Assembly: GCA_964420295.1 (NCBI GenBank)
Contig: CAYQST010000004.1
Location: 100,804 to 164,803 of the forward strand
From: an uncultured Chromatiales bacterium
Lineage (GTDB): Bacteria; Bacteroidota; Ignavibacteria; SZUA-365; CAYQST01
Length of the DNA stretch: 64,000 nucleotides
Direction of reading: 5' to 3'
Part shown: piece by piece, positions 10,551 through 61,705 of the stretch
Layout of the letters: every line of letters begins with the position of its first letter
How positions within the stretch are numbered: the stretch's first letter is position 1
The notes under the pieces: generated by a model
Told to the model about the DNA's origin: nothing
What the model saw: the letters and a program-made list of their open reading frames with translations, nothing else
Databases searched by the model: none
Made by a program: the position numbers and the translations under genes

Positions 10551-10753
10551 GAATGCACGATGGATGAGGGACGATGTAAAGGTACGATCCCAAAGAATGA
10601 GATGCAGATGACCCTTCGTCGGGATGCGGTTCTCGGCGACCGTGTCACAGAAAGGTACGGGGAAAGGAATGGATCGATCCACCGTCAGCGGTACGCGGCG
10701 GACCTTGAGAAGACCACGGGGAGGGGAGGATTGTTACAGAGGAGGGAAGACGA

Positions 10754-21253: not shown

Positions 21254-21423
21254 GATATGCTCCCCTTCGAACAATACAATTGACGATCGCAAAGTGGGAT
21301 GAAATTCCTCCACGATCCAGTCCATTCCTACTCTCCAAAGAAAGTTGCAGACGTCTCGAATTGACTCTTCCCTCCCACCTCTCTAACTTGCCTCGTTGGA
21401 ACGCCATAATACCGGAGGTCCCC

Positions 21424-28150: not shown

Positions 28151-28336
28151 GAGAACCTGAGAAATGACGGACTTTATTCATCTCCCAAATATACGAGGAA
28201 AGGCTGCGGGAAGCGATATAAAACCATGGAAGTGAAGGAGATGGGAGAAACTTTTCACGTCGTGTAACAAAATGTTCTTTCATTTCATCTCATTATTGAG
28301 CAACTTGGAATCCAGTCATTATCTCGAGGATTCTTC

Positions 28337-29089
28337 ATGAAATATATCCGTACTCTGTGTTTGTCCCTGATCGCCATCGTGCTGGTGGGCACCGCGCATC
28401 TGACGCCTCTTCATGCCCAGAGCTTCGAAGTCAGCACCACGACGGTGGATCTTACCGGTCCCGCCTCCGATCCCTTCACCCCGCATGTGGACTTGAAGAA
28501 TCTGACGAGTCGGAAACTGGACATCCGCATTCTGATTACAAAATACCAGATCCCGACGGGCTGGTTCTATTCGATGTGTCTGCACGAATGTTGGGGTGAA
28601 GGCAATTACGATGTGTATGACTGGCTGGAAGGGAACGAGACCGCGTCCTTCAAGCCCTCCTTCGATCCCTCCGGGATTCCAGGCGAAGCGCTCGTGGAAT
28701 TGCGGATCTCCCTGGCGGACGATCCGGGCGAATTCTACGAGGTTACCATCAGGGTGAAGGCCACCTCCACCACTTCCGTGGTAAAAACGTCCGTTGCCCG
28801 CTCCCTGGCTCTTGCCCAGAACTATCCCAACCCGTTCTCCCTGGGCAGCACTCCGTCTACTACCATCACCTATTCCCTCCCCAGAACGGGTGCCGTGTCG
28901 CTCAAAGTGTATAGTCTGCTGGGAACCGAAGTCCGCACGCTCGTGCAGGGTCTCCAGGAACTTGGACCACACGCCATCCAGTGGGACGGACGGGACAACA
29001 ATGGATCGATGCTCCCTCCGGGCGTCTATCTCTACAAACTCTCTGCGGGACGTGAAAGTCAAACTCGTCGCGTGCAACTCACTCGCTAG
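28337..29089 (+). CDS. secreted protein with T9SS C-terminal sorting domain
   Basis: Signal peptide MKYIRTLCLSLIAIVLVGTAHL; C-terminus LAQNYPNPFS..TTITYSLP..VSLKVYSLLGTEVRTLV...WDGRDNNGSMLPPGVYLYKL...RRVQLTR is textbook Por_Secre_tail. Confidence 0.8.
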   Translation: MKYIRTLCLSLIAIVLVGTAHLTPLHAQSFEVSTTTVDLTGPASDPFTPHVDLKNLTSRKLDIRILITKYQIPTGWFYSMCLHECWGEGNYDVYDWLEGNETASFKPSFDPSGIPGEALVELRISLADDPGEFYEVTIRVKATSTTSVVKTSVARSLALAQNYPNPFSLGSTPSTTITYSLPRTGAVSLKVYSLLGTEVRTLVQGLQELGPHAIQWDGRDNNGSMLPPGVYLYKLSAGRESQTRRVQLTR

Positions 29090-42418: not shown

Positions 42419-42573
42419 GGAGTCCAGGAAAAATTGAATAAGGAACCGAACGAGGGATATTCCCGTCTTCCGGTGTAGAGAAAACACCGGTGCAAGGTAT
42501 TTGGTTTACCTGTGAGCACGCAATCTTTTTTTTCATTACCATCCCGTCATCACGATCCTCGAAAGGACCTCTC

Positions 42574-43218
42574 ATGAAACACACTTCCCCCCTTGGCTGG
42601 CACCGCATCGTTTCCCTCCTGTCGGTCGCCGTTCTCTCCGGTATTTTGTTCTCCTGCTCCGCGCTCAAGGACCTCGAATCGGCCATGACCAATCTTTCCC
42701 GCTGTCAATTCAAGCTGGACAACGTGAACGGTTTTGAGTTGATGGGCGTCTCCTTGTCCAATAAAAAAGGCCTTTCTGATTTCTCCACGATGGATGGCCT
42801 GAAGCTGACCCGGGGCTTCCTGAAGGGCGAGTTCCCTGCCGCTTTCACCCTCAATGTTGCTGCGCGCAATCCCAATGACGGCTCTGGTGGATCGCCTTCG
42901 GCCACGGCCACGATGACAAAGTTCGCCTGGCGCCTGTTTATCGATGACGTGGAAACGGTCAATGGGCTGGTGACCGACCCCATCACCATTCCAGGGACGG
43001 GCCAAACCTCCATCATTCCCCTCAAGCTCCAGTTGGATCTCGGAAAGTTTTTCAAGGATCGCGGCTACGAAAAAGTAGTGGATCTCGCGCTCGCCATTGG
43101 TGGCGTCAATGGCAGTCCTTCTCGCCTGACCCTGCGGGCCAAACCCGAGATTCAAACGAAATTCGGGGCCATTCAATATCCTGGTGAAATCGATATCGTG
43201 GATCGCGAATTTCGCTGA
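42574..43218 (+). CDS. lipoprotein, LEA14/WHy (LEA_2)-like domain
   Basis: Lipobox LFSC after signal; LNVAARNPN motif typical of LEA_2; otherwise weak. Confidence 0.45.
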   Translation: MKHTSPLGWHRIVSLLSVAVLSGILFSCSALKDLESAMTNLSRCQFKLDNVNGFELMGVSLSNKKGLSDFSTMDGLKLTRGFLKGEFPAAFTLNVAARNPNDGSGGSPSATATMTKFAWRLFIDDVETVNGLVTDPITIPGTGQTSIIPLKLQLDLGKFFKDRGYEKVVDLALAIGGVNGSPSRLTLRAKPEIQTKFGAIQYPGEIDIVDREFR

Positions 43219-43262: not shown

Positions 43263-44075
43263 CTAGGGTGCGTCCTTCAGCACCCGACGCGCTCCGACAA
43301 AGGTACGCGCATAATACCCGGTGAGCGGGGAGATGATCACACCTCGCTTGGAGCTGGCATGCGCAAAGCACTGGGCTCCGACATAAATGCCCACGTGGGA
43401 CACGGGACTGCCGAAATTCGGGCGTGTTTTAAAAAATACCAGATCCCCCACCTTGAGCTGCCCCTTCTTCACGGGCATGGCATCATCGAAATAATACTGG
43501 GTGGTGGAAGTTCTCGGAATCCACAATCCGGCGAAGCGGGAATACACGGTGCTGGTAAAGGCCGAGCAGTCGAGCCCTCGCACGGCGTCCATCCCACCCC
43601 ATTTGTACTTCGTCGACAGGATGGTGATGATTTCCTTCATCAGAATGCCGCGATCGATGGCCGGGTGCTCCTCTTCGACGCGCAAATGTGCCGACTCTGC
43701 GGGTGCCGCTTCATCGGCCGCTTCTTCCTCCGCCATGGAAGACGACTCTTCTTCGTCGGATTCCTGAATGTCGTGCAGATCGAGTCCTGGCGTGTCCCGT
43801 TTCATCGCGGGCACGGTGCTGGTGTTGACCACGAGCGTGCGCAGTTCCCGCACATCGGCGGGAGGCAGATAGCGCGGCGCATATTTCGCCCTGAGTTCTG
43901 AATACGAGAGTTCTTCGTCGCTCCTCGAATCGGCACTCGCGCGACGCAGAGTATCAGGATTCGTGGTTCCGCGTTCCGCCGTCTTCGCCACACCGATCCC
44001 GGCCTGGCAGGACACGGTCGCGATCCCGGCGAGGAGGAGACAGATGCTGATACGGATAACACGGGCTGAGGGCAT
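43263..44075 (-). CDS. NlpC/P60 (C40) family cell-wall peptidase lipoprotein
   Basis: Lipobox ...AGIATVSC; C-terminal YKWGG...GLDCSAFTSTVY...HVGIYVG catalytic Cys/His context; acidic linker. Confidence 0.75.
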   Translation of the reverse strand: MPSARVIRISICLLLAGIATVSCQAGIGVAKTAERGTTNPDTLRRASADSRSDEELSYSELRAKYAPRYLPPADVRELRTLVVNTSTVPAMKRDTPGLDLHDIQESDEEESSSMAEEEAADEAAPAESAHLRVEEEHPAIDRGILMKEIITILSTKYKWGGMDAVRGLDCSAFTSTVYSRFAGLWIPRTSTTQYYFDDAMPVKKGQLKVGDLVFFKTRPNFGSPVSHVGIYVGAQCFAHASSKRGVIISPLTGYYARTFVGARRVLKDAP

Positions 44076-44104
44076 GATCACGACACTCCACACGACGAAG
44101 AAAA

Positions 44105-45826
44105 CTAGGTGCTTTCTTCGTGATTCGCAATGCGTGCATTCGGTACCGGGAAAAACACGGTGATCGTCGTTCCCACCCCCTTCTTGCTCTGAATCTCGAT
44201 TCGTCCTCCGTTCAATTCTGCATAATGACGCACTAGAGCCATGCCGAGTCCCAGACCTTCGTAGGGACGGGAATAGCCGACCCGTTCCTGCGTAAAGGGA
44301 GCCATGAGATAGGGCAGGTACTCCTCGGCGATCCCGATACCCGTGTCACGCACCGAGAGTGCCCATTCCTGATCCTGCCGCGAACCCGTTACCAGGATCG
44401 ACCCGCGTTCGGTAAACTTGATGGCGTTGTCGAGGATATTGTCCATCATGTGGCGAAGAGAATAGCGATCGGCCACAACCAGAATGGGAGTATCGGGGAG
44501 CTCGATGCGCAGCGCGAGTCCTTTCAGCTTTGCCATCGCGGTGAAGGGCTGGAGGACATGATGCAGTTCATTGCGCACATCGAGTTTCTCGTGGGCAAGG
44601 ACGAAGGACCCGGTGCGAATACTGCTCACGTTCATGATGTGCTCAACAGTTCGGGAGAGTCGGTTGGCGGCATGGATCATGCTGTCGAGAATACGGCTCT
44701 GATCCGGAAGAATCGCATCGGGCAGAAGCTCGTGCAGGAGTTGGGAATACCCCGAGATGATATTCAGCGGGGTGCGAATCTCATGAGAGATGCTGGTGAT
44801 GAAGGCATCCTTGAGCTGGTCGGCCTTCTCGGCCCGAGACATGGCCTTCGTGAGATCGTCGATCATCTGCTTCTTCTCGGTCACGTCTTCCTTTACCGCG
44901 ATGAATCCTGTAATGCTGCCCTCTTCACCGTGGATGGGACCGATGGAGGCCTGCTCCCAGTAGAGCTCTCCGTTCTTGCGGCGATTGTGGAATTCTCCAT
45001 GCCAGATGGATCCGGAAAGGATGGTGGACCAGAGGTCGGCATAAGACTCCCGGGATCGATCTCCGCAATGGAACAGTCGCGGATTACGACCGAGGAGTTC
45101 GCTCGCGAGGTAGCCTGAGCTTCGTTCAACGGCGGGATTGACGTAGGTGATGGTTCCCGCGATATCCGTGATGATGATGGCTGCGGGACTCCGTTCGACG
45201 GCATGCGCAAGCTGCCGATGTACCTCCTCGGTCCGACGCCGTGCAAAGATCGTCCACAGATCCCTCGCCATCACCTGCAGGTGTAACACGTCGTCCGTAT
45301 CGTAGGGATGCTCCTTGTTCGCGACTCCCGCGAGGGCCACGATCGTTCCTTTATCCAGCACGGGTACGCACAAGTGGCGACCGATGGGGAGATGACCTTC
45401 GGGCAGGTGGAGCGGTTGTTCGTGAGAAGGATGATTCTGGAGAACGGGCGCCTGGGTTCGAAGGCACTCGGTCCAGATCTCCAGCTTCGACACGGTCAGG
45501 ATACCATCGAAGGCAACCGCGCAGGATTCCCGCACGGAACGTGACCAGGTGAGTTCCGAAAAATGCTCTTCATCCTTGGCGAGAAGATGCACATACCCCA
45601 ACTGGCTTCCGCTGAGTCGAATGACTTCCTCGAGCATGAACTCAGCCAGTTCCGCATTTGTGGCATGCTCCATCGTCGTGAGACGATGGAGGGCATCCAG
45701 TCGCGCGCGCGCAAGGCGATGACGATCGTCTTCGGTCGTGCAATCCGCGGGAGTAGCGACGAAGGAGGGATCGGAGGCTCCTGGGAGTTCCGTTGGATGA
45801 AAACGGACCAATACGGTAGGCATCAT
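44105..45826 (-). CDS. cytoplasmic GAF/PAS sensor histidine kinase
   Basis: ISHEIRTPLNIISGY H-box; HATPase N/G boxes (DNAIKFT, DTGIGI, GLGLGMALV). Confidence 0.8.
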   Translation of the reverse strand: MMPTVLVRFHPTELPGASDPSFVATPADCTTEDDRHRLARARLDALHRLTTMEHATNAELAEFMLEEVIRLSGSQLGYVHLLAKDEEHFSELTWSRSVRESCAVAFDGILTVSKLEIWTECLRTQAPVLQNHPSHEQPLHLPEGHLPIGRHLCVPVLDKGTIVALAGVANKEHPYDTDDVLHLQVMARDLWTIFARRRTEEVHRQLAHAVERSPAAIIITDIAGTITYVNPAVERSSGYLASELLGRNPRLFHCGDRSRESYADLWSTILSGSIWHGEFHNRRKNGELYWEQASIGPIHGEEGSITGFIAVKEDVTEKKQMIDDLTKAMSRAEKADQLKDAFITSISHEIRTPLNIISGYSQLLHELLPDAILPDQSRILDSMIHAANRLSRTVEHIMNVSSIRTGSFVLAHEKLDVRNELHHVLQPFTAMAKLKGLALRIELPDTPILVVADRYSLRHMMDNILDNAIKFTERGSILVTGSRQDQEWALSVRDTGIGIAEEYLPYLMAPFTQERVGYSRPYEGLGLGMALVRHYAELNGGRIEIQSKKGVGTTITVFFPVPNARIANHEEST

Positions 45827-45844
45827 GCGTCGAAGGAACAGGGG

Positions 45845-46291
45845 TCAGGTTTTTGGAAGCGTCACGATGGTCAGCCAGAAGTCCTCGATGGATCGAATGA
45901 CCACCATGAATTTATCGATATCCAGTGGCTTCGTGATATAGCAGTTGGCATGCAGATCATAGGATCGGAGAATGTCCTCGTCGGATTCCGACATGGTCAT
46001 GATCACCACGGGAATACGGCGCAAGGATTGATCTTCCTTGATGATGGCAAGCACTTCGCGACCATCGCGGCGGGGGAGGTTCAGATCGAGAAGGATGAGG
46101 TCGGGACGGACCGCGTTTTCGTGCTTGCCTCGACGGAACAGAAAGTCCAGCGCGTCCTCTCCGTCATCCACATGGTGGAGCGTGTTGCGGAATTTGCTTT
46201 CCTTTAGGGCTTCGATGGCCAGACGGGCATCGCCGGGATTGTCTTCGATGAGGAGAATTTCGACGGGTTGAGTGGTGTCGTGCGGTGTCAT
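45845..46291 (-). CDS. single-domain response regulator (REC)
   Basis: ILLIEDNPGD...LILLDLNLPRRDG...K. Confidence 0.85.
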   Translation of the reverse strand: MTPHDTTQPVEILLIEDNPGDARLAIEALKESKFRNTLHHVDDGEDALDFLFRRGKHENAVRPDLILLDLNLPRRDGREVLAIIKEDQSLRRIPVVIMTMSESDEDILRSYDLHANCYITKPLDIDKFMVVIRSIEDFWLTIVTLPKT

Positions 46292-46303
46292 ACGGAACCT
46301 GTG

Positions 46304-47935
46304 CTATTCGGAAAACTCCTCGAGGAAGGGTGAGGAGTGAGAGGAATCGGGTTGATAATCCTTGGGGAACACAATGGTGAAGGTACTTCCTGATCCGGGG
46401 CGACTGTCGGCGTGGATCTGGCCACCGTGGCGCTCGACGATGCGTTTGCAGATCGCGAGACCGATGCCCGTGCCTGGATAGTCCTTGCGCGAATGAAGGC
46501 GCTTGAAAATGACAAAGATGCGCTCTTTGTATGCGGGATCAAACCCAATTCCGTTGTCACGGACCCGGATGATCCAATCGCATTCTGTGTCTTCGGCGTC
46601 GATGGTGATGTGGGGCCTGGCATCTCCGGCGAATTTCAGGGCGTTTTCAACGAGGTTCTGGAAGAGACGGGTAAGTTGCGAGCGGTCCCCTGAAAGAACC
46701 GGCAGGTGCGACACCTCCAGCTCCGCCTGCTTTTCGAGTAATAAAATCTGGAGGTTGGTGCGGACATCCTCCAGCACCTGGTGCAGTTCCACGGACTGGA
46801 AGGGGAGCCCCTTGGTGGATATTCGGGAGAAGGATAGAAGATCCGAGATGAGTCTCTGCATCCGCGTGGCGCCTTCGACGGCGAAGTCGATAAAATCTCG
46901 CGCATCGTCGTCGAGATGATCGCGATATCGGCGTGCCAGGAGCTGCGTGTAACTCGATACCATGCGCAGAGGCTCCTGCAGATCGTGAGAGGCGACATAG
47001 GCGAATTGTTCGAGTTCGCGATTCGAGGTCTCGAGGCGGCGGAGAGTGCGATGGAGTTGCTCCTGGGCGAGCTTGGCAGAGGTGATGTCCCGTCCCACGC
47101 CCATGACTCCCGTGACGGTTCCGTCGGAAGCCTTGAACGGAACGAGCTGGACATTGAGCCAGAGAACGGCGTGCGGAAACGGAAGGCGGATTTCGTGCAC
47201 GGTGGTGGCACCCGAGGCGAGAATGGCATCGATGGGACGGAGGTAGCCCGATTGCGCACCTCCCGGGAGGAGCTCGGGCAGGGTCCGCTGCACGAGCTCA
47301 TGGGCGGGGAGGCCCAGGGCTCTTTCGAGCGCGGGGTTGATGTAGTCCACCCCGTAATCCCGGTTCACGATAAAAATGAAATCCGGGATCGCTTCGGCCA
47401 GGGTTCGATACCGTTCCTCGGACGCTCGCAGGGAAGCTTCCGCAGACTTTCGGGCTGTGATGTCCTCGTAGGTTCCCATGATCCCGATGATGTCCCCCTT
47501 TTCGTTTCGCAGGGGAATCTTGCTCGTGCGAAGCCAGAGAACCGATCCGTCGGGCCGAACCTGGGGCTCTTCGTAATTGATCTTGGACTTCCCGGTTTCC
47601 ATGACTTCCCGATCATCGGCCTGATAGCGGGGAGCGCTGGCTCTCCAGGACAGCACGTCGTCCCGCTTTCCGATGATCTCTTCGGGAGACGTACAGCCGG
47701 CATCCACCGCGAAAGGAATATTGCATCCAAGATATCGGTAATGGAGATCCTTCCAGAACACACGCTGGGGAATGAAATCCAGCACCAACCGCAACATATC
47801 GGTGGCTTCGGCGATGGCTTGCTCCGACCCCTGCCAGATCAGGCGACGGGTGTGCCGTCGTCGTCGCCTCAGTTCGAGAAGACTCAAAATCAAGGCCACG
47901 CCTACGCCCAATCCGATCAGGAAGCCGGTCAGCAT
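46304..47935 (-). CDS. membrane-anchored dual-PAS sensor histidine kinase
   Basis: N-terminal TM, two PAS-like segments, VASHDLQEPLRMV H-box, HATPase G-boxes DNGIGF, GTGIGLAI. Confidence 0.85.
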   Translation of the reverse strand: MLTGFLIGLGVGVALILSLLELRRRRRHTRRLIWQGSEQAIAEATDMLRLVLDFIPQRVFWKDLHYRYLGCNIPFAVDAGCTSPEEIIGKRDDVLSWRASAPRYQADDREVMETGKSKINYEEPQVRPDGSVLWLRTSKIPLRNEKGDIIGIMGTYEDITARKSAEASLRASEERYRTLAEAIPDFIFIVNRDYGVDYINPALERALGLPAHELVQRTLPELLPGGAQSGYLRPIDAILASGATTVHEIRLPFPHAVLWLNVQLVPFKASDGTVTGVMGVGRDITSAKLAQEQLHRTLRRLETSNRELEQFAYVASHDLQEPLRMVSSYTQLLARRYRDHLDDDARDFIDFAVEGATRMQRLISDLLSFSRISTKGLPFQSVELHQVLEDVRTNLQILLLEKQAELEVSHLPVLSGDRSQLTRLFQNLVENALKFAGDARPHITIDAEDTECDWIIRVRDNGIGFDPAYKERIFVIFKRLHSRKDYPGTGIGLAICKRIVERHGGQIHADSRPGSGSTFTIVFPKDYQPDSSHSSPFLEEFSE

Positions 47936-48145
47936 TTCACCCTCTGGGCGTGCAAGATCGTCTGGAGCCGGATAGCCGCAGCGCGATCAGGATCACGTGA
48001 GGATGCGCGATCCTTCGTGGGGAGAGATCGGGGTGACGACGCATGTGGAGAGGCGGACTTTCGTCCATGGACTCGTCCCTTCGTGAGCAGAGGTACCGTC
48101 CATTGTACGGGTTCTTCCCGTGCGAGTCAAGCCTCCGACATCTGA

Positions 48146-48410
48146 TTATGGGAGCACCACCAGCCGTTGCAGGAGAAAGGTGCCGGCTACCTCGGCCCGG
48201 AGAAACCACGTGCCAGGAGACGGAATCAGGGCTGCCAGGGGCTGCTGTATCGTCGACCCCGCCGTCAAACGTCCCGTCCAAATCGTGGCCACTTCCTGGC
48301 CCAACACCGTGAGCAAGGTGATGCGTGCCAGTCCGTCTTTCGGGGAGAACACTTCCACGTGTGTGGACGCTCCCATCCGAAAGGGCAGGGCACCGATGAG
48401 GGACAGGCGC
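48146..48410 (-). pseudogene. orphan T9SS C-terminal sorting domain fragment (remnant of a cargo gene)
   Basis: Minus-strand translation ...LPFRMGASTHVEVFSPKDGLARITLLTVLGQEVATIWTGRLTAG..PGTWFLRAEVAGTFLLQRLVVLP* matches Por_Secre_tail pattern; upstream in-frame sequence runs antisense into the 48530 gene and has no cargo-domain features. Confidence 0.45.
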
Positions 48411-48529
48411 GGAAGCGCGGTTTCGGAGATGGCATTACCAGCCCCGAGTACTACGTGCCGAACCCATTTTTGCCGTATTTTACGCAGTCCCTTTCGGGAT
48501 CGAGTCTCACCCACAACGCCAACGCTGTC

Positions 48530-50539
48530 ATGGAACTGAAAAACCTCCTGTTTCTTCTCGTCCTTCTTCTGGCATTCGGCTTCTTCGGATATACCGTGAA
48601 GAAGATGCTGGGTCGCCTCCGTCTGGGAAAGCCCGAGAATCGCTTCGACCATTTCGACAAACGGGTCGGAAATGTGCTCTCGATTGCCTTCGGGCAAACG
48701 AAGATCTTGCGGGATCCTCTCGCGGGTCCCATCCATTTCGGCATTTTCTGGGGCTTTGTCGTCCTGTTGTCGGCGGTGGGCGAATCGATCGGGGAGGGAC
48801 TGTTTCATGGTTTTTCCCTTTCCTTTCTCGGGCCGCTGTATCCCGTGCTGGCCTGGGCGGCGGATCTGATGTGCGTACTCGTGCTTTTGGCGGTGCTGTT
48901 GTCTCTGCTCCGCCGCCATGTGCTGGGTCCGGCTCGGGTTCGGGATATCGATCCGCACTCTCAAAAAGATGCGACGCTGATCCTGTCGGCAATCGCCATC
49001 ATCATGATCACTATGCTCGTACAGAACGCCACGCGTATTTCCCTGGGCGAGGGGTTGCGGTATGCGCAGGACTGGAGGCCGGTGAGTCTCTGGCTTTCAG
49101 GCATGTTCGGTTCGGGTGGAGGCACCCGCGTCGTCTTCGAGGTGAGTTGGTGGATTCACATTCTCGTCGTGTTGGGCTTTCTCAACGCCCTGCCGTACTC
49201 GAAGCATTTTCATGTCCTCACCTCCATCCCCAACGTGTATTTCAGCAATCGGAGCATCCGTCCCGAGGGCGACGGTGCCCTGAAGCCTCTGGATCTGGAA
49301 GATGAGAACGCGGAAAAGTTCGGTGCCTCCGACGTACAGGATCTGACCTGGAAACAGCTCTTCGATAGTTATACCTGCACGGAATGCGGGCGCTGCACCT
49401 CGGTGTGTCCCGCCCATCACACCGGGAAACTGCTCTCTCCGAAAAAGATCATCACCGATACCCGCGCACGACTGACCGAGAAGGCGTTGGCGATCGAGAA
49501 GGGCGAGAGCGAGGGACCGGTGTTTGATCGGTCTCTGCTCCATACCTTCATCACTCCCCAGGAACTCTGGGCCTGCACCACCTGTCGCGCCTGCGTGCAG
49601 GAATGTCCGGTTATGATCGAGCATGTGGACGAAATCGTGGATCTGAGGCGGGAACTGGTTCTCACCGAAGGGGAATTTCCTGAACCGCTCCAGGTGCTCT
49701 ATCGCAACCTCGAGAATAATTTCGCACCCTGGCAGTTCAGTCCCGAAGACCGCGCCAAATGGGCCGATGGACTCGACATCCCTCTGCTTTCGGATCTCGG
49801 ATCGGCGGAGCAGGTGGACTTTCTTTTTTGGGTGGGATGCTCGGGTAGCTTCGATGCGCGCTATACGAAGGTGAGCGTGGCCCTGGCCACCATCCTGAAA
49901 AAAGCGGGGATTCGGTTCGCCATTCTCGGGCCCGAGGAAAAATGCAACGGCGATGCCGCCCGACGAACCGGAAACGAGTACCTGGCGCAGATGCTCATGC
50001 GCGAAAACATCGACACGCTCAACAATTACCATGTGACCCGAATCGTCACGGCCTGTCCCCATTGCTTCCATACACTCAAGCACGAATACCCCCAGTTTGG
50101 CGGCAAATATGAGGTCATTCATCACAGCGACCTCATTGCGCACTTGATCGAAGCGGGTGTGCTCCGTCCCGAGAATCCCGTGCCCGCCACCGTCACCTAT
50201 CATGATTCCTGTTATCTCGGTCGGTACAACGACGTGTACAACGCCCCGAGAACAGCCATCCAGCACATTCCCGGACTTTCCCTCATCGAGATGGCGCGAA
50301 ACAGGGATCGTGGATTCTGTTGTGGCGCCGGAGGAGGACAGATGTTCATGGAGGAAACCGAGGGCAAACGCGTCAATCTCGAACGGAGCGAAGAAGCCCT
50401 CGCCACCGGCGCCGAGGTGATCGCCTCCGCCTGTCCGTTCTGCATGACGATGATGGTGGACGGGGTGAAGGCCTGCGAAAAGCAGGATGAGGTGGTGGTG
50501 AAGGATATCGCCGAACTGGTGGTCGAGTCCCTGCGCTGA
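48530..50539 (+). CDS. membrane-bound HdrD/GlpC/DsrK-like Fe-S oxidoreductase fused to NarI-like di-heme b membrane domain
   Basis: Start MELKNLLFLL at 48530; 5-6 TM helices with His pairs (KHFHVLT); CTECGRCTSVCP and CTTCRACVQECP ferredoxin motifs; two CCG domains (VGCSGSFD..., DSCYLG...GFCCGAGGG). Confidence 0.8.
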   Translation: MELKNLLFLLVLLLAFGFFGYTVKKMLGRLRLGKPENRFDHFDKRVGNVLSIAFGQTKILRDPLAGPIHFGIFWGFVVLLSAVGESIGEGLFHGFSLSFLGPLYPVLAWAADLMCVLVLLAVLLSLLRRHVLGPARVRDIDPHSQKDATLILSAIAIIMITMLVQNATRISLGEGLRYAQDWRPVSLWLSGMFGSGGGTRVVFEVSWWIHILVVLGFLNALPYSKHFHVLTSIPNVYFSNRSIRPEGDGALKPLDLEDENAEKFGASDVQDLTWKQLFDSYTCTECGRCTSVCPAHHTGKLLSPKKIITDTRARLTEKALAIEKGESEGPVFDRSLLHTFITPQELWACTTCRACVQECPVMIEHVDEIVDLRRELVLTEGEFPEPLQVLYRNLENNFAPWQFSPEDRAKWADGLDIPLLSDLGSAEQVDFLFWVGCSGSFDARYTKVSVALATILKKAGIRFAILGPEEKCNGDAARRTGNEYLAQMLMRENIDTLNNYHVTRIVTACPHCFHTLKHEYPQFGGKYEVIHHSDLIAHLIEAGVLRPENPVPATVTYHDSCYLGRYNDVYNAPRTAIQHIPGLSLIEMARNRDRGFCCGAGGGQMFMEETEGKRVNLERSEEALATGAEVIASACPFCMTMMVDGVKACEKQDEVVVKDIAELVVESLR

Positions 50540-50684: not shown

Positions 50685-51080
50685 ATGGATCAGGAATTGA
50701 ACAAGCTCTTCGATGAGTACGATCTTCTCGAAACCGATGATGAGAAGAAGTACCACGACAATGCGCGCATCGTGTCCGAGCAGTTCGAGCGCAAGCTCTC
50801 GGCCTCCGGTCGCAAGGTGCGTTTCGCCCAGGATCTGATCGCCTTGTTTCGATATTTTCTCGATGCGCGCATCCCCTGGCAGAAGAAGACGCTGGTGGTT
50901 GCCGCATTACTGTACTTCATCCTTCCCCTCGACGCTTTTCCCGATCTGACCCCCATTCTCGGATATCTCGATGATTTTGGAGTCGTGATGGCGGTTACCT
51001 CCTTCATGGCGCGGGAACTGGCAGCCTATTATCCCGATGGGGAACCCGAACCCACCCCGGTACCCGCGACCGAAGAATGA
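50685..51080 (+). CDS. DUF1232/YkvA-family membrane protein
   Basis: ARIPWQKKTLVVAALLYFILPLDAFPDLTPILGYLDDFGVVMAV family motif. Confidence 0.6.
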   Translation: MDQELNKLFDEYDLLETDDEKKYHDNARIVSEQFERKLSASGRKVRFAQDLIALFRYFLDARIPWQKKTLVVAALLYFILPLDAFPDLTPILGYLDDFGVVMAVTSFMARELAAYYPDGEPEPTPVPATEE

Positions 51081-51142: not shown

Positions 51143-53857
51143 ATGATCGAAAGGGAGACCACCGCTTCGGCACCGACGCTTGAAGATGCCCGAGGCATTT
51201 TGCGCACGTTTTTTTCCTATGAGGATTTTCGTCCCGGCCAGGGAGAAATCATCGCCTCCATCCTGGCTGGTAGGGACACGGTGGCCGTCATGCCCACCGG
51301 GGGAGGGAAGTCCCTCTGTTACCAGGTGCCCGCCCTCATGCTCGAGGGACTCACCGTGGTGGTGTCTCCCCTGATCGCGCTCATGCAGGATCAGGTGGAC
51401 GCCCTGTCGCGGAGAGGCATCCCCGCCACGTATATCAACTCCCATTTGACCCATCGCGATGTGACGATTCGCATGGAACGCACTCGCTTCGGGGCCTATC
51501 GAATGCTCTATGTGGCGCCTGAGCGCTTCGAAAGCAGTCGGTTTGTGGATGCCCTCAAAGGCATTCCCATTTCCCTGCTGGCGGTGGATGAGGCGCACTG
51601 CGTCAGCGAGTGGGGACATGATTTTCGGCCCAGCTATCTGCGCCTCGCGGAAGCCCGGGAACAGCTCGGGCGGCCCGTGGTGGCGGCCCTGACCGCCACC
51701 GCAACCCCCGAAGTCCGACGCGATATCGTGCAGCAACTCGCGCTCACCGATCCCGTCGTGCTGGTGCGCGGGTTCGACCGCCCCAACCTGCGCTTTCGCG
51801 TGCTCACGGGTGTGAACAAAAAACAGGTGATTCTCGATCGCTGCGCACGGGGAGACAGTGGTGTGGTGTATGCCGGTTCCCGTGCCACGGTAGAGGAGCT
51901 GGCACGACTCACCCGCGAGGCGGGAATCGCATCGGCACCCTATCACGCCGGCCTCGGCGCCGACCAGAGGCGGGAGACGCAGGAACAGTTTCTTTCCGGC
52001 ACCCTTCCGGTGATCGTCGCTACCACGGCCTTCGGAATGGGCATCGACAAACCCAACGTGCGATTCGTGATCCATCACGATATGCCGCTGTCGATCGAGC
52101 AGTATTACCAGGAGGCTGGACGTGCGGGGCGGGATGGAGAACCTGCTGAGTGCATCGTGCTGTATCACGAGGCCGATCGGGGCTTTCCGGAACTGCTCAT
52201 TCGATCCACCTATCCCGACCGAGCCCTCGTGCAACAGGTGTATTCCTTCCTGCACAACGAGGCGGGTACCGTGGTCGGAAATTACACCGACCTCCTTCTT
52301 CCCCTGACGGCATCGAGCATCGCAAACCGCCTCCGTTCGGCCTCCGAAACCTCGGTGCGCAATGCCCTCGGCCTGCTCGAACATCATGGCTATCTGCGCC
52401 AGATCTCCACGGTGTATGCCCGTACCACCCTGCGCTTTCTCCTGCCTCCCGAACGCATGCGGGAATGGGTCACTGAAAGCACACGTCCTCTCCTGACACC
52501 CGTGGTCTTTGCCCTTTTACGAACAGTGGGAGGAGAAGCTTTTTTTTCGGAGGTCGACGTGGACATCGCGGACATCGCGGCCAAGTCCTTTCTCGATGAG
52601 GAAAGAATTCTCGATGGACTTCGCGAACTGGCCAAGGAACAGGTTGTCGCACTCCATCTCGAGCGTCCGAAAAGTGGCATCGTCCTTTCCGGCGTTCGCA
52701 TCCCTGCGGGCGATCTGGATATCGATTTTCGGGCGCAGGACAAACGACGCAAACGGCAGTTCCTCAAGCTCGATGCGCTGGAGCACTATCTCACGGCGTC
52801 GGAATGCCGACGGAATCTCCTTCTCGCGTATTTCAGCGAAGACGACATCAAGGGAACCTGCGGGATCTGCGATGTCTGTACGGGAGAATCTCATCCCACG
52901 AGGATGCGGGAGCAGCCCCTGCCCACGCGGGAGGATCGTCTCGTCATCCTCCATGCGGTGGCCGAGGTCAATGGGAAATTCGGACGGAGTCTCGTCGTGG
53001 ATATTCTGCGAGGAGCGAAGACGCGCCGTATCGTCGACTATGGCCTCACCGAATGCGCGATGTATGGACGGCTGGCTTCGCACTCAGGGGATCAGGTGAA
53101 ATCCTGGCTCGATGTGCTCGTGGTCGAGGGACTTTTACGTCGCTCCGATGGCGTGCATCCGACTCTGTTCGTGACTCAGGAGGGAGAGCAATTCCTGGGC
53201 CGCCCCGTGCTCCCACGATCCCTGCCCGCACGGGGCGCGGCACCCGAGGAGGCAGGGGTGGATGCCGTACTCCTCGAAGCCCTGCGCGCGGTGCGCCGCC
53301 GCGTGGCCCAGCACGGGGGACTCCCATCGTACGCGGTGATGACCGATGAGGTGCTGCGGGCACTCTGCCTGGCGAAACCACGGGATCGGGGGGCCTTTCT
53401 CGCCATCGAGGGTGTGGGTCCTGCGACCTTCCAAAAATGTGGTCGCGAGATGCTGGCCGCTATCACCGACCACGAAACCCAACGCCATCTCACCGTCGCG
53501 CTGGAGAAAGCCGGGGCCATCCTCGAGGAGATCAGTCCCACCGTGCGCGAAACCCTGGCCCTGGCCGAAGCGGGACTCGACCTCGCCTCGCTGGCCGAGC
53601 GGAGAGGGTTGTCCATCGGCACCGTGTCTCAGCATCTGGTGGATCTCATCGAACATGGCATTGCTCTGCCCCTCGACTCTCTCGTCCCTCCCGTTCATCA
53701 GCAGGAGATCCGCCGCGCGTCTCGGTCCCTGCACAGTCGAGACCTGAAGCGCATCAAGTCCGTCGTCGACCCCGCCATCACCTTTGCCGAGATCCGCCTC
53801 CTTCTGGCATGGATCGCGAAGGAATCCGCGAAGGGCGAACCGTCCGGCACGGAATGA
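51143..53857 (+). CDS. recQ: RecQ-family ATP-dependent DNA helicase (long form with insertion, Zn/RQC, HRDC and extra C-terminal HTH-like domain)
   Basis: FRPGQGEII, MPTGGGKSLCYQVPAL (motif I), DEAHCVSEWGHDFRPSY (DEAH), ATTAFGMGIDKPNVRFVIH, QEAGRAGRDG; CRRNLLLAYF...CGICDVC zinc module; HRDC-like SYAVMTDEVLRAL..IEGVGPATFQK. Confidence 0.85.
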   Translation: MIERETTASAPTLEDARGILRTFFSYEDFRPGQGEIIASILAGRDTVAVMPTGGGKSLCYQVPALMLEGLTVVVSPLIALMQDQVDALSRRGIPATYINSHLTHRDVTIRMERTRFGAYRMLYVAPERFESSRFVDALKGIPISLLAVDEAHCVSEWGHDFRPSYLRLAEAREQLGRPVVAALTATATPEVRRDIVQQLALTDPVVLVRGFDRPNLRFRVLTGVNKKQVILDRCARGDSGVVYAGSRATVEELARLTREAGIASAPYHAGLGADQRRETQEQFLSGTLPVIVATTAFGMGIDKPNVRFVIHHDMPLSIEQYYQEAGRAGRDGEPAECIVLYHEADRGFPELLIRSTYPDRALVQQVYSFLHNEAGTVVGNYTDLLLPLTASSIANRLRSASETSVRNALGLLEHHGYLRQISTVYARTTLRFLLPPERMREWVTESTRPLLTPVVFALLRTVGGEAFFSEVDVDIADIAAKSFLDEERILDGLRELAKEQVVALHLERPKSGIVLSGVRIPAGDLDIDFRAQDKRRKRQFLKLDALEHYLTASECRRNLLLAYFSEDDIKGTCGICDVCTGESHPTRMREQPLPTREDRLVILHAVAEVNGKFGRSLVVDILRGAKTRRIVDYGLTECAMYGRLASHSGDQVKSWLDVLVVEGLLRRSDGVHPTLFVTQEGEQFLGRPVLPRSLPARGAAPEEAGVDAVLLEALRAVRRRVAQHGGLPSYAVMTDEVLRALCLAKPRDRGAFLAIEGVGPATFQKCGREMLAAITDHETQRHLTVALEKAGAILEEISPTVRETLALAEAGLDLASLAERRGLSIGTVSQHLVDLIEHGIALPLDSLVPPVHQQEIRRASRSLHSRDLKRIKSVVDPAITFAEIRLLLAWIAKESAKGEPSGTE

Positions 53858-59330: not shown

Positions 59331-60635
59331 TCAGCGCTGCAGAAGCACGCGATGATGCACGATCCGGTCTCCTGCCTGGAGACGAAGAAGGAGCATTCCC
59401 GAAGGGATGGTGAGATCGTGCGGGGGGAACCAGGATACACTGTGAATACCCGCGGTACGAGGGCCCTCGTCCACTGTAGCCCAGGTTCGACCGAGAAGAT
59501 CGACGGCCGTGACGCGCACGGCGGCGTCCTCGGGGAGCTGGTAGCGGAGGGTCAGGGCTCCGCGGCGAGTAAGGGAATAGGGATGGGGATAGGTGTCGAG
59601 GATGGCCAGGGTCGGGTGGGTCGGCGCGGTGACGCGAGCCAGGACGGGACCGAAGGGAGTTCGCGTTCCATCGATATCGATCTGCTGCAGACGATACCAG
59701 AGCAGATCGGATCCTACAAGAAGAGCCCCATCATCCGTCCAGGAATAGGCGTTCGGAAGAACACTCGTGCCTCTTCCCTCCACGAATCCTACCGGGGTGA
59801 ACTCCCCATTCGCCTCCGCCGATCTCTCGATTAGGAACCCGTGATTGTTGCGTTCGGAGGCCGTTTCCCAGTCCAGCACCACCCGAGGTCCATCCATGCG
59901 TGTCCTCAGCGAGGTCAGCTCGACCGGCACCACGGGTGGGGTAATGCAGATGGTGGCCGAGGCATACCAATCCACTGGCTGCCCCACGATGCTCGAGGCC
60001 GACACCCAGGTGGCGGGGGAGGTAAAGCAGACGCTACGCGGATAGCTGCCTCCGTAGATCTGAGGAGTCTTGAATTTCCAGGTTACCGAATGACTGGGAT
60101 CACCCTTGATCCAGGCGCCGATGAAAAAGTCCCGCATGGGATTGACCACCGCCGTGCCCACGGCAGGAGGCGTGTTGAGCGGGACTGGGAAGATCTCGAA
60201 CTGAAACTGGTTGTTCCCGACCCGCGTCAGGTAGTACCCCTCGAACATCGTGTTGTGTGGAGGAGTGGCCTCCTTCATGAACAGGTAGATCGTGTCACGC
60301 TGCGATGGAGTGCTGGAGATGATGTCGAAATCGAGATTGATCGTCCAGACCGTGCACACGCTGGTCGGTGTCACTTTCACCGCGAACCGGGAGCTAGGCA
60401 GATTCTGTGTGAAGGGCATGATGCCCGCACTCGGGTCGAAGTAGTAGTAGATGGGACAGATGCTGCCGACACCGATGTTCGTGGAGGCAGGCTTGCCGAG
60501 ATGATGGAGAGGGGATCCTGCAACGGAGGAGACGAAGGCCGAACCCGCATTCTTCCATCGAACGGTCACGACGGGATCTTGCCCGAGGGCCGAAACGGAA
60601 AAGAGCATTATCAGCAGGAATACGAAGCGGGTCAT
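59331..60635 (-). CDS. secreted protein with conserved pre-CTD module and T9SS C-terminal sorting domain
   Basis: Start MTRFVFLLIMLFSVSALGQ (hand-checked at 60635; longer ORF overlaps hypE in another frame); C-terminus LDTYPHPYS...LTLRYQLPEDAAVRVTAVDLLGRTWATV...LLLRLQAGDRIVHHRVLLQR. Confidence 0.7.
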   Translation of the reverse strand: MTRFVFLLIMLFSVSALGQDPVVTVRWKNAGSAFVSSVAGSPLHHLGKPASTNIGVGSICPIYYYFDPSAGIMPFTQNLPSSRFAVKVTPTSVCTVWTINLDFDIISSTPSQRDTIYLFMKEATPPHNTMFEGYYLTRVGNNQFQFEIFPVPLNTPPAVGTAVVNPMRDFFIGAWIKGDPSHSVTWKFKTPQIYGGSYPRSVCFTSPATWVSASSIVGQPVDWYASATICITPPVVPVELTSLRTRMDGPRVVLDWETASERNNHGFLIERSAEANGEFTPVGFVEGRGTSVLPNAYSWTDDGALLVGSDLLWYRLQQIDIDGTRTPFGPVLARVTAPTHPTLAILDTYPHPYSLTRRGALTLRYQLPEDAAVRVTAVDLLGRTWATVDEGPRTAGIHSVSWFPPHDLTIPSGMLLLRLQAGDRIVHHRVLLQR

Positions 60636-60691
60636 GGCGAAATTCTCCAAGTGCAAACCGAAAATATCGACTCCACGTTGCTTCTGCAATG

Positions 60692-61705
60692 TCAACAGAT
60701 GCGGGGGAGAATTTCTCCCGACAGCATGGGAAGTACTCTGGTGCCCCCGATGCTCGTATGAACGGTCACCATGCCGGGGCGACCCTTGACCACGGTGCCA
60801 ATCCGTACGGCTCGGGGGGCCTCCGGCCGCGCGCGCATCACCCCAAGCAGGTCTTCCACCCGCTCGTCGGGTACCACCGCCACAAGAATGCCTTCGTTGG
60901 TCAGATACAGCGGATCGAATCCCAGCAAGGCACAGGCGCCGCGCACGTCTTCGTCCACGGGCACGGTGTCCTCCTCGATGGCAAGGGCACAGCCCGACTG
61001 TGCGGCCAGCTCGTTGAGGGTCGTGGCGAGACCTCCTCGCGTGGGATCCCTGAGCACGCGCAGATCCGGAGCCACGGAGAGCATGTGCTCGACAAGATGA
61101 TGGAGAGGACGGGTATCGCTGACCACCGGAGTGTGGAAGCCGATACCCTCCCGACACGAGGCGACCGCGATGCCATGGTTGCCGAGCGGACCCGAGAGCA
61201 CAATCGCATCCCCTTCGTGCAGACGATCTCCCGAGAGCTGGCATCCCGTGGACGCCCATCCTATGCCTGCTGTGGTGATGAAGAGCCCATCGGCGGCCTC
61301 GCGTTCCACCACCTTCGTGTCACCCGTGACGATGGGCACTCCTGCCTCCCGCGCGGCGGCTCCCATGTCGTCGACGATACGTTTCAGGTCTTCCAGTCGA
61401 AACCCTTCCTGAATGATGAAAGCCGCCGAGAGCGCAAGGGGCCGGGCTCCCATCATGGCTAGATCGTTGATGGTGCCATGAACGGCAAGGGTACCGATGC
61501 TTCCACCGGGAAAGTGCAGGGGGCGAACCACATGACTGTCGGTGCTGAACACGAGCCGGCCCCCTTCCGCGTCCAACACGGCGCCATCATTGCCCTGGCG
61601 TAGGATGGGATTATCGAAAGCGGGAAGAAACACCGTGCGAAGGAGCTCGTGCATTTGGGAGCCGCCACTCCCATGGGAAAGGAGGATCGAGCCGGGTGTG
61701 GACAT
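60692..61705 (-). CDS. hypE: hydrogenase maturation carbamoyl dehydratase HypE (AIR-synthase-related)
   Basis: PurM-like fold blocks; diagnostic C-terminus ...GEILPRIC (HypE PRIC motif). Confidence 0.7.
   Translation of the reverse strand: MSTPGSILLSHGSGGSQMHELLRTVFLPAFDNPILRQGNDGAVLDAEGGRLVFSTDSHVVRPLHFPGGSIGTLAVHGTINDLAMMGARPLALSAAFIIQEGFRLEDLKRIVDDMGAAAREAGVPIVTGDTKVVEREAADGLFITTAGIGWASTGCQLSGDRLHEGDAIVLSGPLGNHGIAVASCREGIGFHTPVVSDTRPLHHLVEHMLSVAPDLRVLRDPTRGGLATTLNELAAQSGCALAIEEDTVPVDEDVRGACALLGFDPLYLTNEGILVAVVPDERVEDLLGVMRARPEAPRAVRIGTVVKGRPGMVTVHTSIGGTRVLPMLSGEILPRIC

What the first reader, a model, noticed from the sequence alone, without database searches (positions are those of the whole stretch)
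48146..48410. Orphan T9SS C-terminal-domain gene fragment upstream of the Fe-S oxidoreductase
The minus-strand translation of 48146-48410 is a well-formed T9SS sorting domain (LPFRMGASTHVEVFSPKDGLARITLLTVLGQEV...PGTWFLRAEVAGTFLLQRLVVLP*) ending in a stop codon. However, no cargo body precedes it. The in-frame upstream sequence immediately runs antisense into the start of the 48530 gene. This looks like a decayed remnant of a secreted-protein gene, or a CTD cassette. It is evidence of gene loss or rearrangement in the large (~590 bp) intergenic region between the HK gene and the Fe-S protein.
Basis: seen in the sequence. Interest (0 to 1): 0.5.

Follow-up and report, generated by a model that had tools for sequence, protein, structure and literature searches.

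The report
Orphan T9SS sorting-domain gene remnant
A stretch of about 260 bases between two genes still encodes a complete secretion "address tag" (a type IX secretion C-terminal sorting domain) with no protein attached to it. It is the leftover tail of a gene cut off when a 4.3-kb block of sensor-kinase genes landed between two old neighbours, which is an ordinary genomic scar.

Summary
The minus-strand translation of 48149-48409, with its stop at 48146-48148, is a real type-A-like T9SS C-terminal sorting domain (CTD).

- **Curated models miss it.** Pfam gives no hit and TIGR04183 gives 11.5-12.6 bits against a cut-off of 23. Intact CTDs in this window also score only 14-33 bits.
- **A lineage-specific HMM finds it.** An HMM built without the fragment scores it at 21.7 bits (E 2e-5).
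- **phmmer supports it.** Against 1.84 billion proteins, residues 8-93 align to the extreme C-termini of about 30 proteins. All eight that were checked with Pfam and NCBIfam carry Por_Secre_tail exactly there.
- **The predicted fold fits.** AlphaFold predicts a 7-strand β-sandwich (pLDDT 84).

No cargo or signal peptide precedes it, because the conserved Fe-S oxidoreductase gene starts 120 nt upstream on the other strand.

Synteny explains why. Six related genomes keep an NlpC/P60 gene (-) directly next to the Fe-S gene (+). In this window a ~4.3-kb block (HK2, RR, HK1 and the CTD fragment) sits between those two genes, and the CTD lies at the block's edge. It is therefore most likely the truncated 3' end of the gene that preceded HK1 at the block's former site.

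No parent gene was found; the best non-self identity is 41%. Interest is low.

The parts
48146..48409 (-). Orphan T9SS type-A-like C-terminal sorting domain: 87 codons (48149-48409) plus stop codon (48146-48148). It is complete from the first beta-strand (RLSLI) to the C-terminus.
   Evidence: Lineage-specific CTD HMM 21.7 bits, i-E 2.4e-5. phmmer hits to C-terminal Por_Secre_tail domains. Alignment with four intact window CTDs, invariant P16/G44/P70/G73. AF2 7-strand sandwich, pLDDT 84.4. Gene-like codon usage.
48146..48376 (-). 76-aa ORF (ATG 48376; MGASTHVEVF...) present in a public protein set as P0001. It lacks the first CTD strand, a signal peptide and any cargo.
   Evidence: 100% self-hit, source NCBI, one contig of 167,656 bp. 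(singleton cluster, no name). (start-codon survey; no hydrophobic N-terminus).
48410..48529 (.). Junction zone and retained Fe-S gene upstream region. The rearrangement breakpoint is inferred to lie at about 48410-48455. The promoter-like motif CCGTATTTTAC at 48473-48483 matches the CCGTAATTT/CCGTACTTT motif found at about the same distance upstream of the Fe-S ATG in relatives.
   Evidence: motif conserved in L001-L014, L027, L047. (CTD homology starts at query residue ~8 = nt 48409).
47936..48145 (-). 210-nt spacer between the CTD stop and the HK1 start. It contains a sigma-70-like promoter match (TTGACT-17-TACAAT, 48130-48102, minus strand). It is presumably the native intergenic region of the former cargo-gene/HK1 pair.
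   Evidence: 10 of 12 matches; 1 site found against 0.4 expected. (no coding signal in any minus frame).
44105..47935 (-). Co-inserted two-component block: HK1 (46304-47935; PAS-PAS-HisKA-HATPase), receiver-only response regulator (45845-46291) and HK2 (44105-45826).
   Evidence: domains. (absent from the NlpC/Fe-S junction in six relatives). (GC same as surroundings).
43263..44093 (-). NlpC/P60 lipoprotein gene, the ancestral divergent neighbour of the Fe-S gene. It now begins 11-29 nt after the HK2 stop.
   Evidence: ORF; PF00877, 85 bits; 48-54% identical orthologues immediately upstream of Fe-S in L008, L009, L015, L016, L052, L057.
48530..50539 (+). Membrane-anchored Fe-S oxidoreductase (4Fe-4S dicluster plus two CCG domains), intact. 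Its start limits the space available for any cargo body.
   Evidence: CCG 127 bits, Fer4_8/9. (relatives align over residues 1-669, up to 74% identity).

Best explanation
The fragment is the non-functional 3' end of a former T9SS cargo gene.

That gene once lay directly upstream of HK1 on the same strand. A ~4.3-kb piece of DNA (cargo-gene tail, 210-nt spacer, HK1, RR, HK2) was moved or acquired. It was inserted into the divergent intergenic region between the NlpC/P60 gene and the Fe-S oxidoreductase gene, replacing most of that region. One end of the piece fell at or just upstream of the CTD boundary, so only the sorting domain came along.

With no signal peptide and no cargo, the peptide cannot reach the periplasm and so cannot be a T9SS substrate, even if the 76-aa ORF were translated. 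The DNA now serves only as spacer between the HK1 operon promoter and the Fe-S gene promoter.

Shown: the CTD homology, the absence of any cargo body, and the presence of the extra block relative to six related genomes.

Inferred: the direction of the event (insertion here rather than deletion elsewhere), that the tail belonged to HK1's former upstream neighbour, and non-functionality.
For: - CTD identity: with weak support (RemA-CTD 8gl6_D at rank 3 and mirolase CTD 8qb1 at rank 13 among generic Ig-like folds).
- No cargo: the Fe-S start at 48530 is confirmed by full-length alignment in 79 loci, and a conserved promoter-like motif sits at 48473. Only ~120 nt lie upstream of the domain.
- Inserted block: the order lipoprotein(+)/NlpC-P60(-)/Fe-S(+)/small/RecQ is collinear in L009 and partly so in L008, L015, L016, L052 and L057, with nothing between NlpC and Fe-S. 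The window carries HK2-RR-HK1-CTD there.
- The fragment has the same orientation as HK1 and is separated from it by a non-coding 210-nt spacer with a promoter-like site.
- No signal peptide or SD-like sequence at the possible starts.
- No homologue above 41% identity anywhere, so there is no evidence that it is conserved as a small gene.
- Flanks on both sides are syntenic with relatives and the block's GC matches, which argues against an assembly chimera.
Against: - The parent gene or donor locus was not found. The best HK1 relatives in metagenomes are only 47% identical (best segments reach 60%), and none has a T9SS gene upstream.
- The domain shows no frameshift or stop and keeps gene-like codon usage. 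This fits a recent event but would also fit selection on a small ORF.
- A public gene caller did call the 76-aa ORF.
- No repeats, microhomology or mobile-element genes mark the block's ends, so the mechanism of insertion is unknown.
- The polarity (insertion versus loss in relatives) rests on parsimony across six genomes whose phylogenetic position relative to the source was not determined.
Confidence: 0.8

Rival explanations
1. The fragment is a functional small gene: a stand-alone CTD protein of 76 aa (from ATG 48376) or 122 aa (from GTG 48514). The longer form would have a basic N-terminus (RSRKGLRKIRQKWVR) and a short hydrophobic stretch (VVLGAGNAIS) acting as a weak signal peptide. That would make it a minimal T9SS substrate or a decoy for the translocon.
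For: - Intact frame, gene-like codon usage and a confidently predicted fold.
- A public annotation calls the 76-aa ORF.
- The 122-aa version has a positively charged N-terminus followed by a 9-residue stretch with mean Kyte-Doolittle hydropathy of 1.78.
Against: - No homologue above 41% identity among 1.84e9 representatives and no conserved short relatives. The short CTD hit that was checked, P0004, is a contig-edge fragment.
- The 76-aa form lacks the first CTD strand and any export signal.
- The 122-aa form would start 16 nt from the Fe-S ATG and would need a promoter inside the Fe-S coding region.
- None of the 49 CTD hits in 2.2 Mb of related loci is an internal CTD-only ORF.
Confidence: 0.06
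2. The fragment descends from the thioredoxin-like T9SS cargo gene (~700 aa) that lies directly upstream of the Fe-S gene in ten other relatives. A local inversion plus deletion would have flipped its tail.
For: In L001, L002, L003, L005, L006, L007, L012, L014, L027 and L047 a T9SS cargo gene ends just upstream of the Fe-S gene, so a CTD next to Fe-S has a precedent in this lineage.
Against: - That gene is on the + strand, and keeping only its tail in reverse orientation would need a ~260-bp inversion.
- An HMM dominated by those CTDs (iteration 0) did not detect the fragment at E<10, and tblastn of the fragment against those loci found nothing.
- The window's flanks match the other arrangement, NlpC/P60 next to Fe-S.
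Confidence: 0.04
3. Assembly artefact: a chimeric join in a metagenome-assembled contig placed a foreign piece ending inside a T9SS gene next to the Fe-S gene.
For: - The relatives recovered are all MAGs, so the source may be a MAG as well; its record could not be retrieved (two searches found no record).
- The truncation is abrupt and unmarked by repeats.
Against: - Two precise misjoins would be needed to drop 4.3 kb between genes that are true neighbours in relatives.
- GC and codon usage of the block match the rest of the window.
- HK2 abuts the NlpC start with an 11-nt gap and intact reading frames.
Confidence: 0.05
4. Chance: an open antisense or GC-rich frame that merely resembles a beta-rich CTD.
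For: - Curated models are below threshold.
- The frame is open for 316 codons largely because it runs antisense to the Fe-S gene.
- The Foldseek hits are generic Ig-like folds.
Against: - Independent lineage HMM E 2e-5, with end-to-end register at the stop codon.
- About 30 database-wide significant hits, all in C-terminal register with annotated sorting domains.
- The motif columns P/G/P/G are conserved.
- The codon signal is specific to this frame.
Confidence: 0.02

Closest known systems
T9SS type A C-terminal sorting domain (TIGR04183 / Pfam PF18962 Por_Secre_tail), as in RgpB of Porphyromonas gingivalis, RemA of Flavobacterium johnsoniae and mirolase of Tannerella forsythia
   Same: - About 85 residues placed immediately before the stop codon.
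- Seven predicted beta-strands in an Ig-like sandwich.
- Conserved Pro/Gly positions shared with intact CTDs of the same genome.
- Significant pairwise hits to many proteins whose C-termini carry this domain.
   Different: - No Sec signal peptide and no passenger domain.
- Scores below the curated cut-offs (12.6 bits against 23).
- The N-terminal 'PNPF' motif reads 'ALPF', and the last residues are VVLP rather than ending in the usual Lys/Arg.
- It is therefore a domain relic, not a T9SS substrate.
Truncated gene remnants (unitary pseudogene fragments) at insertion or rearrangement breakpoints in bacterial genomes
   Same: - The 3' part of a gene is retained at the edge of a block that is absent from related genomes.
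- The rest of the gene is missing and no conserved orthologue exists.
   Different: No transposase, integrase, tRNA, direct repeat or microhomology marks the breakpoints, so the usual mobile-element signature is lacking.
Small complete T9SS substrates (signal peptide, short body and CTD, ~160 aa), e.g. the ORF at L056:1003-1491
   Same: A short ORF ending in a type-A CTD.
   Different: Those have a clear N-terminal signal peptide (MKWLIFIILLFLSINLYA) and ~70 residues of body. The window fragment has neither.

Membership tests
T9SS type A sorting domain (TIGR04183 / PF18962) | Score above the curated cut-off of the family HMM | tested here: not met
   TIGR04183 gives 11.5-12.6 bits against a cut-off of 23, and PF18962 gives no hit. 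Intact CTDs of four cargo genes in the same window score only 14.3, 23.2, 24.5 and 33.0 bits, and Pfam reports none of them at E<=1e-4. The curated models are therefore insensitive in this lineage.
T9SS type A sorting domain (TIGR04183 / PF18962) | Significant sequence homology to bona fide CTDs by other means | tested here: met
   Lineage HMM (candidate excluded) gives 21.7 bits, i-E 2.4e-5. phmmer gives E 1e-6 to 1e-3 against a library of 1.84e9, to proteins whose aligned C-termini match TIGR04183 (27.8-43.1 bits in all eight checked) and PF18962 (above its cut-off in six of the eight).
T9SS type A sorting domain (TIGR04183 / PF18962) | Position at the extreme C-terminus, followed directly by the stop codon | tested here: met
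   The HMM match ends at residue 315 of 316, and the stop is at 48146-48148.
T9SS type A sorting domain (TIGR04183 / PF18962) | Ig-like beta-sandwich of ~7 strands | tested here: met
   AF2 model has pLDDT 84.4, pTM 0.75 and seven strands. Foldseek lists RemA-CTD (8gl6_D) and mirolase CTD (8qb1) among otherwise generic Ig-like hits. This is a prediction only.
T9SS substrate (cargo protein) | N-terminal Sec signal peptide and a passenger domain upstream of the CTD | tested here: not met
   Only ~120 nt separate the domain from the conserved Fe-S start on the opposite strand. The candidate starts give MGASTHVE... or VGETRSRKGLRK..., neither with a convincing hydrophobic core.
T9SS substrate (cargo protein) | Host encodes a T9SS | tested here: inconclusive
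   Four intact CTD-bearing ORFs in the window imply an active T9SS. No machinery gene (PorV, SprA, PorU, GldKLMN) was looked for or seen in the window.
Gene remnant at a rearrangement breakpoint | Flanking genes are adjacent in related genomes, and the extra DNA carrying the fragment is absent there | tested here: met
   NlpC/P60(-) is immediately upstream of Fe-S(+) in L008, L009, L015, L016, L052 and L057. The window has HK2-RR-HK1-CTD in between.
Gene remnant at a rearrangement breakpoint | An intact parent or orthologue is identifiable elsewhere | tested here: not met
   Only a self-hit in the 5.8e9-protein search. Best non-self identity is 41%. Nothing in the 159 related loci or in the metagenome scans. 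The contexts of P0007 and P0004 are unrelated.

The most novel reading that the evidence does not exclude
The CTD-only ORF is expressed from the GTG at 48514 as a 122-aa protein. Its basic N-terminus plus short hydrophobic stretch would work as a signal peptide. The product would be a 'cargo-less' T9SS substrate that is exported and attached to the surface, or that competes for the translocon or PorV. It might be co-regulated with the adjacent two-component operon.
Probability: 0.04. Interest if true: 0.5.

Novelty: new member of a known kind. Interest (0 to 1): 0.15.

Why it matters
It matters little beyond annotation. The 76-aa "hypothetical protein" that public gene calling produces here should be flagged as a pseudogene fragment, a T9SS CTD remnant.

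The locus also documents a datable rearrangement: a sensor-kinase block inserted into a conserved divergent promoter region. That insertion probably rewired transcription of the NlpC/P60 gene, which now sits 11-29 nt behind HK2.

It is also a useful caution. The curated T9SS CTD models (PF18962, TIGR04183) under-detect CTDs in this Bacteroidota/Ignavibacteria-like lineage.

Tried and rejected
- **Pfam and NCBIfam scans of the peptide:** sub-threshold.
- **Word-indexed search of 5.8e9 proteins:** self-hit only.
- **Look-up of the source contig via P0001 and the Fe-S protein:** not on record.
- **tblastn of the peptide against 79 syntenic loci from GTDB genomes:** nothing.
- **Metagenome scan with the peptide:** 600 pattern matches, none confirmed.
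- **Metagenome scan with HK1 to find the donor locus:** full-length relatives are at most 47% identical (best segments up to 60%), and none has a CTD gene upstream.
- **Contexts of the best CTD hits:** P0007 has a cellulase downstream. P0004 is a contig-edge fragment with an unrelated gene downstream.
- **Search for the relatives' ~700-aa thioredoxin-like T9SS cargo in the window:** only generic CTD-level hits to other cargo genes. Descent from that gene was rejected.
- **Repeats, inverted repeats and microhomology at the block ends:** none.
- **Terminator scan:** none.
- **Rfam scan of 47800-48650:** none.
- **Composition anomaly of the block:** none.
- **Foldseek against PDB:** consistent but not discriminating.
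- **Literature search for orphan or pseudogenised T9SS CTDs:** nothing specific.

Full report
**1. What is in the sequence**

On the minus strand, 48409 to 48149 reads ...ALPRLSLIGALPFRMGASTHVEVFSPKDGLARITLLTVLGQEVATIWTGRLTAGSTIQQPLAALIPSPGTWFLRAEVAGTFLLQRLVVLP, followed by a stop at 48146-48148.

The frame is mechanically open up to 49096, but only because it runs antisense through the first ~190 codons of the + strand Fe-S oxidoreductase gene. That gene is 48530-50539, with CCG and 4Fe-4S dicluster domains. Its start is fixed by full-length alignments (residues 1-669, up to 74% identity) in 79 loci from related genomes.

**2. Is it really a T9SS sorting domain?**

Curated models alone would say no. 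Pfam reports nothing, and TIGR04183 gives 11.5-12.6 bits (E 0.1-0.2) against a cut-off of 23. These models are weak for this lineage, however. The CTDs of four intact cargo genes in the same window (8148-10733 -, 21256-25161 +, 28268-29089 +, 59331-61319 -) score only 24.5, 23.2, 33.0 and 14.3 bits. Pfam lists PF18962 for none of them at E<=1e-4.

I therefore built an HMM from the CTDs of those genes and of cargo genes in related loci, leaving the candidate out, and iterated it twice over stop-to-stop translations. The candidate scores 20.8-21.7 bits (i-E 4.5e-5 to 2.4e-5 among ~2,950 segments) and the match runs to the last residue. It is the only hit in the window that is not the C-terminus of a long ORF.

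Independently, phmmer against 1.84 billion cluster representatives gave 41 hits at E<1e-3:
- About 30 of them align query residues ~8-93 to the extreme C-terminus of proteins from 96 to 1,116 aa long.
- All eight of these that I checked carry Por_Secre_tail exactly at the aligned place.
- Two multi-stretch hits that I checked (P0002, and P0003, an RTX protein) show no sorting domain and look like repeat artefacts. Five further multi-stretch hits were not checked.

An alignment with the four window CTDs shows the usual conserved Pro and Gly columns. AlphaFold2 on that small alignment gives a seven-strand sandwich with pLDDT 84.4 and pTM 0.75. Foldseek against the PDB returns generic Ig-like folds, with RemA-CTD at rank 3 and mirolase CTD at rank 13. 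This is consistent but not specific.

The frame has gene-like codon usage: log-likelihood 0.277 per codon against a gene mean of 0.274, with all five other frames lower. The 210 nt between its stop and HK1 show no coding signal.

**3. Is a cargo body present?**

No. Homology begins at about nt 48409, and the Fe-S ATG is at 48530 on the other strand. Upstream of the Fe-S gene, relatives share a promoter-like motif (TTG ... CCGTAATTT/CCGTACTTT) roughly 55-70 nt before the ATG. The window keeps CCGTATTTTAC at 48473-48483. The DNA from about 48455 to 48529 therefore belongs to the Fe-S gene's own upstream region, and at most ~15 codons of unassigned sequence precede the domain.

Only two in-frame starts lie upstream of or near the start of the domain:
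- ATG 48376 gives 76 aa. This is the ORF present in a public protein set as P0001. It would lack the first strand of the domain and has no export signal.
- GTG 48514 gives 122 aa. It lies 16 nt from the Fe-S ATG. Its N-terminus is basic, with only a 9-residue weakly hydrophobic stretch.

**4. Why is it there? Synteny**

Relatives show two arrangements upstream of the Fe-S gene.
- **Ten genomes** have TraB/GumN, then a ~700-aa thioredoxin-like T9SS cargo gene, then Fe-S, all on the + strand.
- **Six genomes** (L008, L009, L015, L016, L052, L057) have an NlpC/P60 gene on the minus strand diverging from Fe-S across roughly 400-550 nt or more. Four of these are preceded by a lipoprotein gene on the + strand. 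L009 and L016 (like L010 and L058) continue downstream of Fe-S into a small gene and RecQ.

The window has exactly the second set:
- lipoprotein 42490-43218 (+)
- NlpC/P60 43263-44093 (-; PF00877)
- Fe-S 48530-50539 (+)
- small gene 50685-51080
- RecQ 51143-53857

Between the NlpC start and the Fe-S start there are 4,436 nt instead of ~500. They hold HK2 (44105-45826), a receiver-only response regulator (45845-46291), HK1 (46304-47935), a 210-nt spacer with a sigma-70-like site (48130-48102), and the CTD fragment, all on the minus strand.

The CTD fragment is thus the outermost element of a ~4.3-kb block that the six relatives lack. The simplest account is that the block was cut out of, or copied from, a locus where a T9SS cargo gene preceded HK1. 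One end of the block fell at the cargo/CTD boundary. The block then replaced most of the NlpC/Fe-S intergenic region: HK2's stop is now 11 nt from the NlpC GTG and 29 nt from the first in-frame ATG.

The block's GC content (56-62%) and codon usage match the surroundings. This points to an intragenomic move or an old acquisition. Together with synteny on both flanks, it also argues against an assembly chimera.

**5. What I could not find**

- **The parent gene.** The 5.8-billion-protein search returned only the fragment's own ORF. The best non-self identity in the exhaustive search is 41%. The peptide is absent from the 79 syntenic loci and from JGI metagenome contigs.
- **The donor locus.** The best full-length HK1 relative in metagenomes is 47% identical, and none has a CTD gene upstream. 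The genomic contexts of two of the best CTD hits are unrelated.
- **The mechanism.** No repeats, microhomology, mobile-element genes, terminators or Rfam families mark the region.

The fragment is not specifically related to the thioredoxin-like cargo that neighbours Fe-S in the other ten relatives. The HMM dominated by those CTDs did not detect it (iteration 0), and that gene is on the opposite strand.

**6. How unusual is it?**

In 2.2 Mb of related loci the same HMM finds 49 CTDs. Every short hit is either cut by a contig end or is a short stop-to-stop segment that still has 70-85 residues upstream of the CTD; one of these (L056:1003-1491) has a clear signal peptide. None is an internal CTD-only piece. 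Orphan CTDs are therefore not common, but a gene tail left at a rearrangement breakpoint is an ordinary kind of genomic scar.

**7. Verdict**

The words 'decayed' and 'cassette' are not supported. The domain looks intact, which suggests a fairly recent event, and there is no sign of cassette-like reuse.

I put ~0.8 on the relic-at-a-breakpoint model. The remainder is split among a functional mini-ORF, descent from the syntenic cargo gene by inversion, an assembly artefact, and chance. Interest is low (0.15). The practical value lies in correcting annotation and in noting the poor sensitivity of curated CTD models in this lineage.

Noticed in passing
window 8148-10733 (-), 21256-25161 (+), 28268-29089 (+), 59331-61319 (-): Four intact ORFs end in T9SS type-A-like CTDs. 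Two are BNR/sortilin-repeat proteins. One is a small protein whose tail Pfam calls FlgD_ig. One is a ~440-aa protein with no Pfam hit. Their CTDs score only 14-33 bits on TIGR04183 and are not reported by PF18962 at E<=1e-4, so curated models under-call T9SS cargo in this lineage.
   Followed up: partly
L001, L002, L003, L005, L006, L007, L012, L014, L027, L047 (upstream of the Fe-S match): In ten related genomes the Fe-S gene is preceded on the same strand by TraB/GumN and a ~700-aa thioredoxin-like (FEHFTNASCGPCA) T9SS cargo gene. In six others it is preceded by a divergent NlpC/P60 gene. The upstream border of the Fe-S gene is thus a recurrent rearrangement point in this group.
   Followed up: partly
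window 48473-48483 and the equivalent position in L001-L014, L027, L047: A conserved promoter-like motif (TTG ... about 19 nt ... CCGTAATTT/CCGTACTTT) lies ~55-70 nt upstream of the Fe-S ATG across relatives. It resembles the Bacteroidota -33/-7 promoter type. The window keeps the -7-like part (CCGTATTTTAC), but no clear TTG at -33.
   Followed up: partly
window 44095-44121: A perfect 9-bp inverted repeat (ACGAAGAAA / TTTCTTCGT on the minus strand) has a 9-nt loop containing the HK2 stop codon and sits 1 nt before the NlpC/P60 GTG. It may be an attenuator or processing hairpin at the left edge of the inserted block. NlpC/P60 has lost its ancestral upstream region and may now be read through from the HK operon.
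   Followed up: no
window 59331-61259 (-): The mechanical ORF (642 aa) begins with ~200 Arg/Gly/Ala-rich residues that look like a spurious 5' extension. The likely true start is MTRFVFLLIMLFSVSALGQ (a signal peptide), giving a protein of ~440 aa.
   Followed up: no
L008 6500-8700: All six frames translate to long poly-Gly/Pro/Arg runs, i.e. a ~2-kb G/C homopolymer-like low-complexity stretch between the lipoprotein and NlpC/P60 genes of this MAG. It is probably an assembly or polishing artefact.
   Followed up: no
window 48146-50539 (+): The Fe-S gene's reading frame is open for a further 384 nt upstream of its real ATG (mechanical TTG start at 48167, 790 aa), straight through the CTD fragment on the opposite strand. 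A naive longest-ORF caller would over-extend the Fe-S protein by 121 residues.
   Followed up: yes
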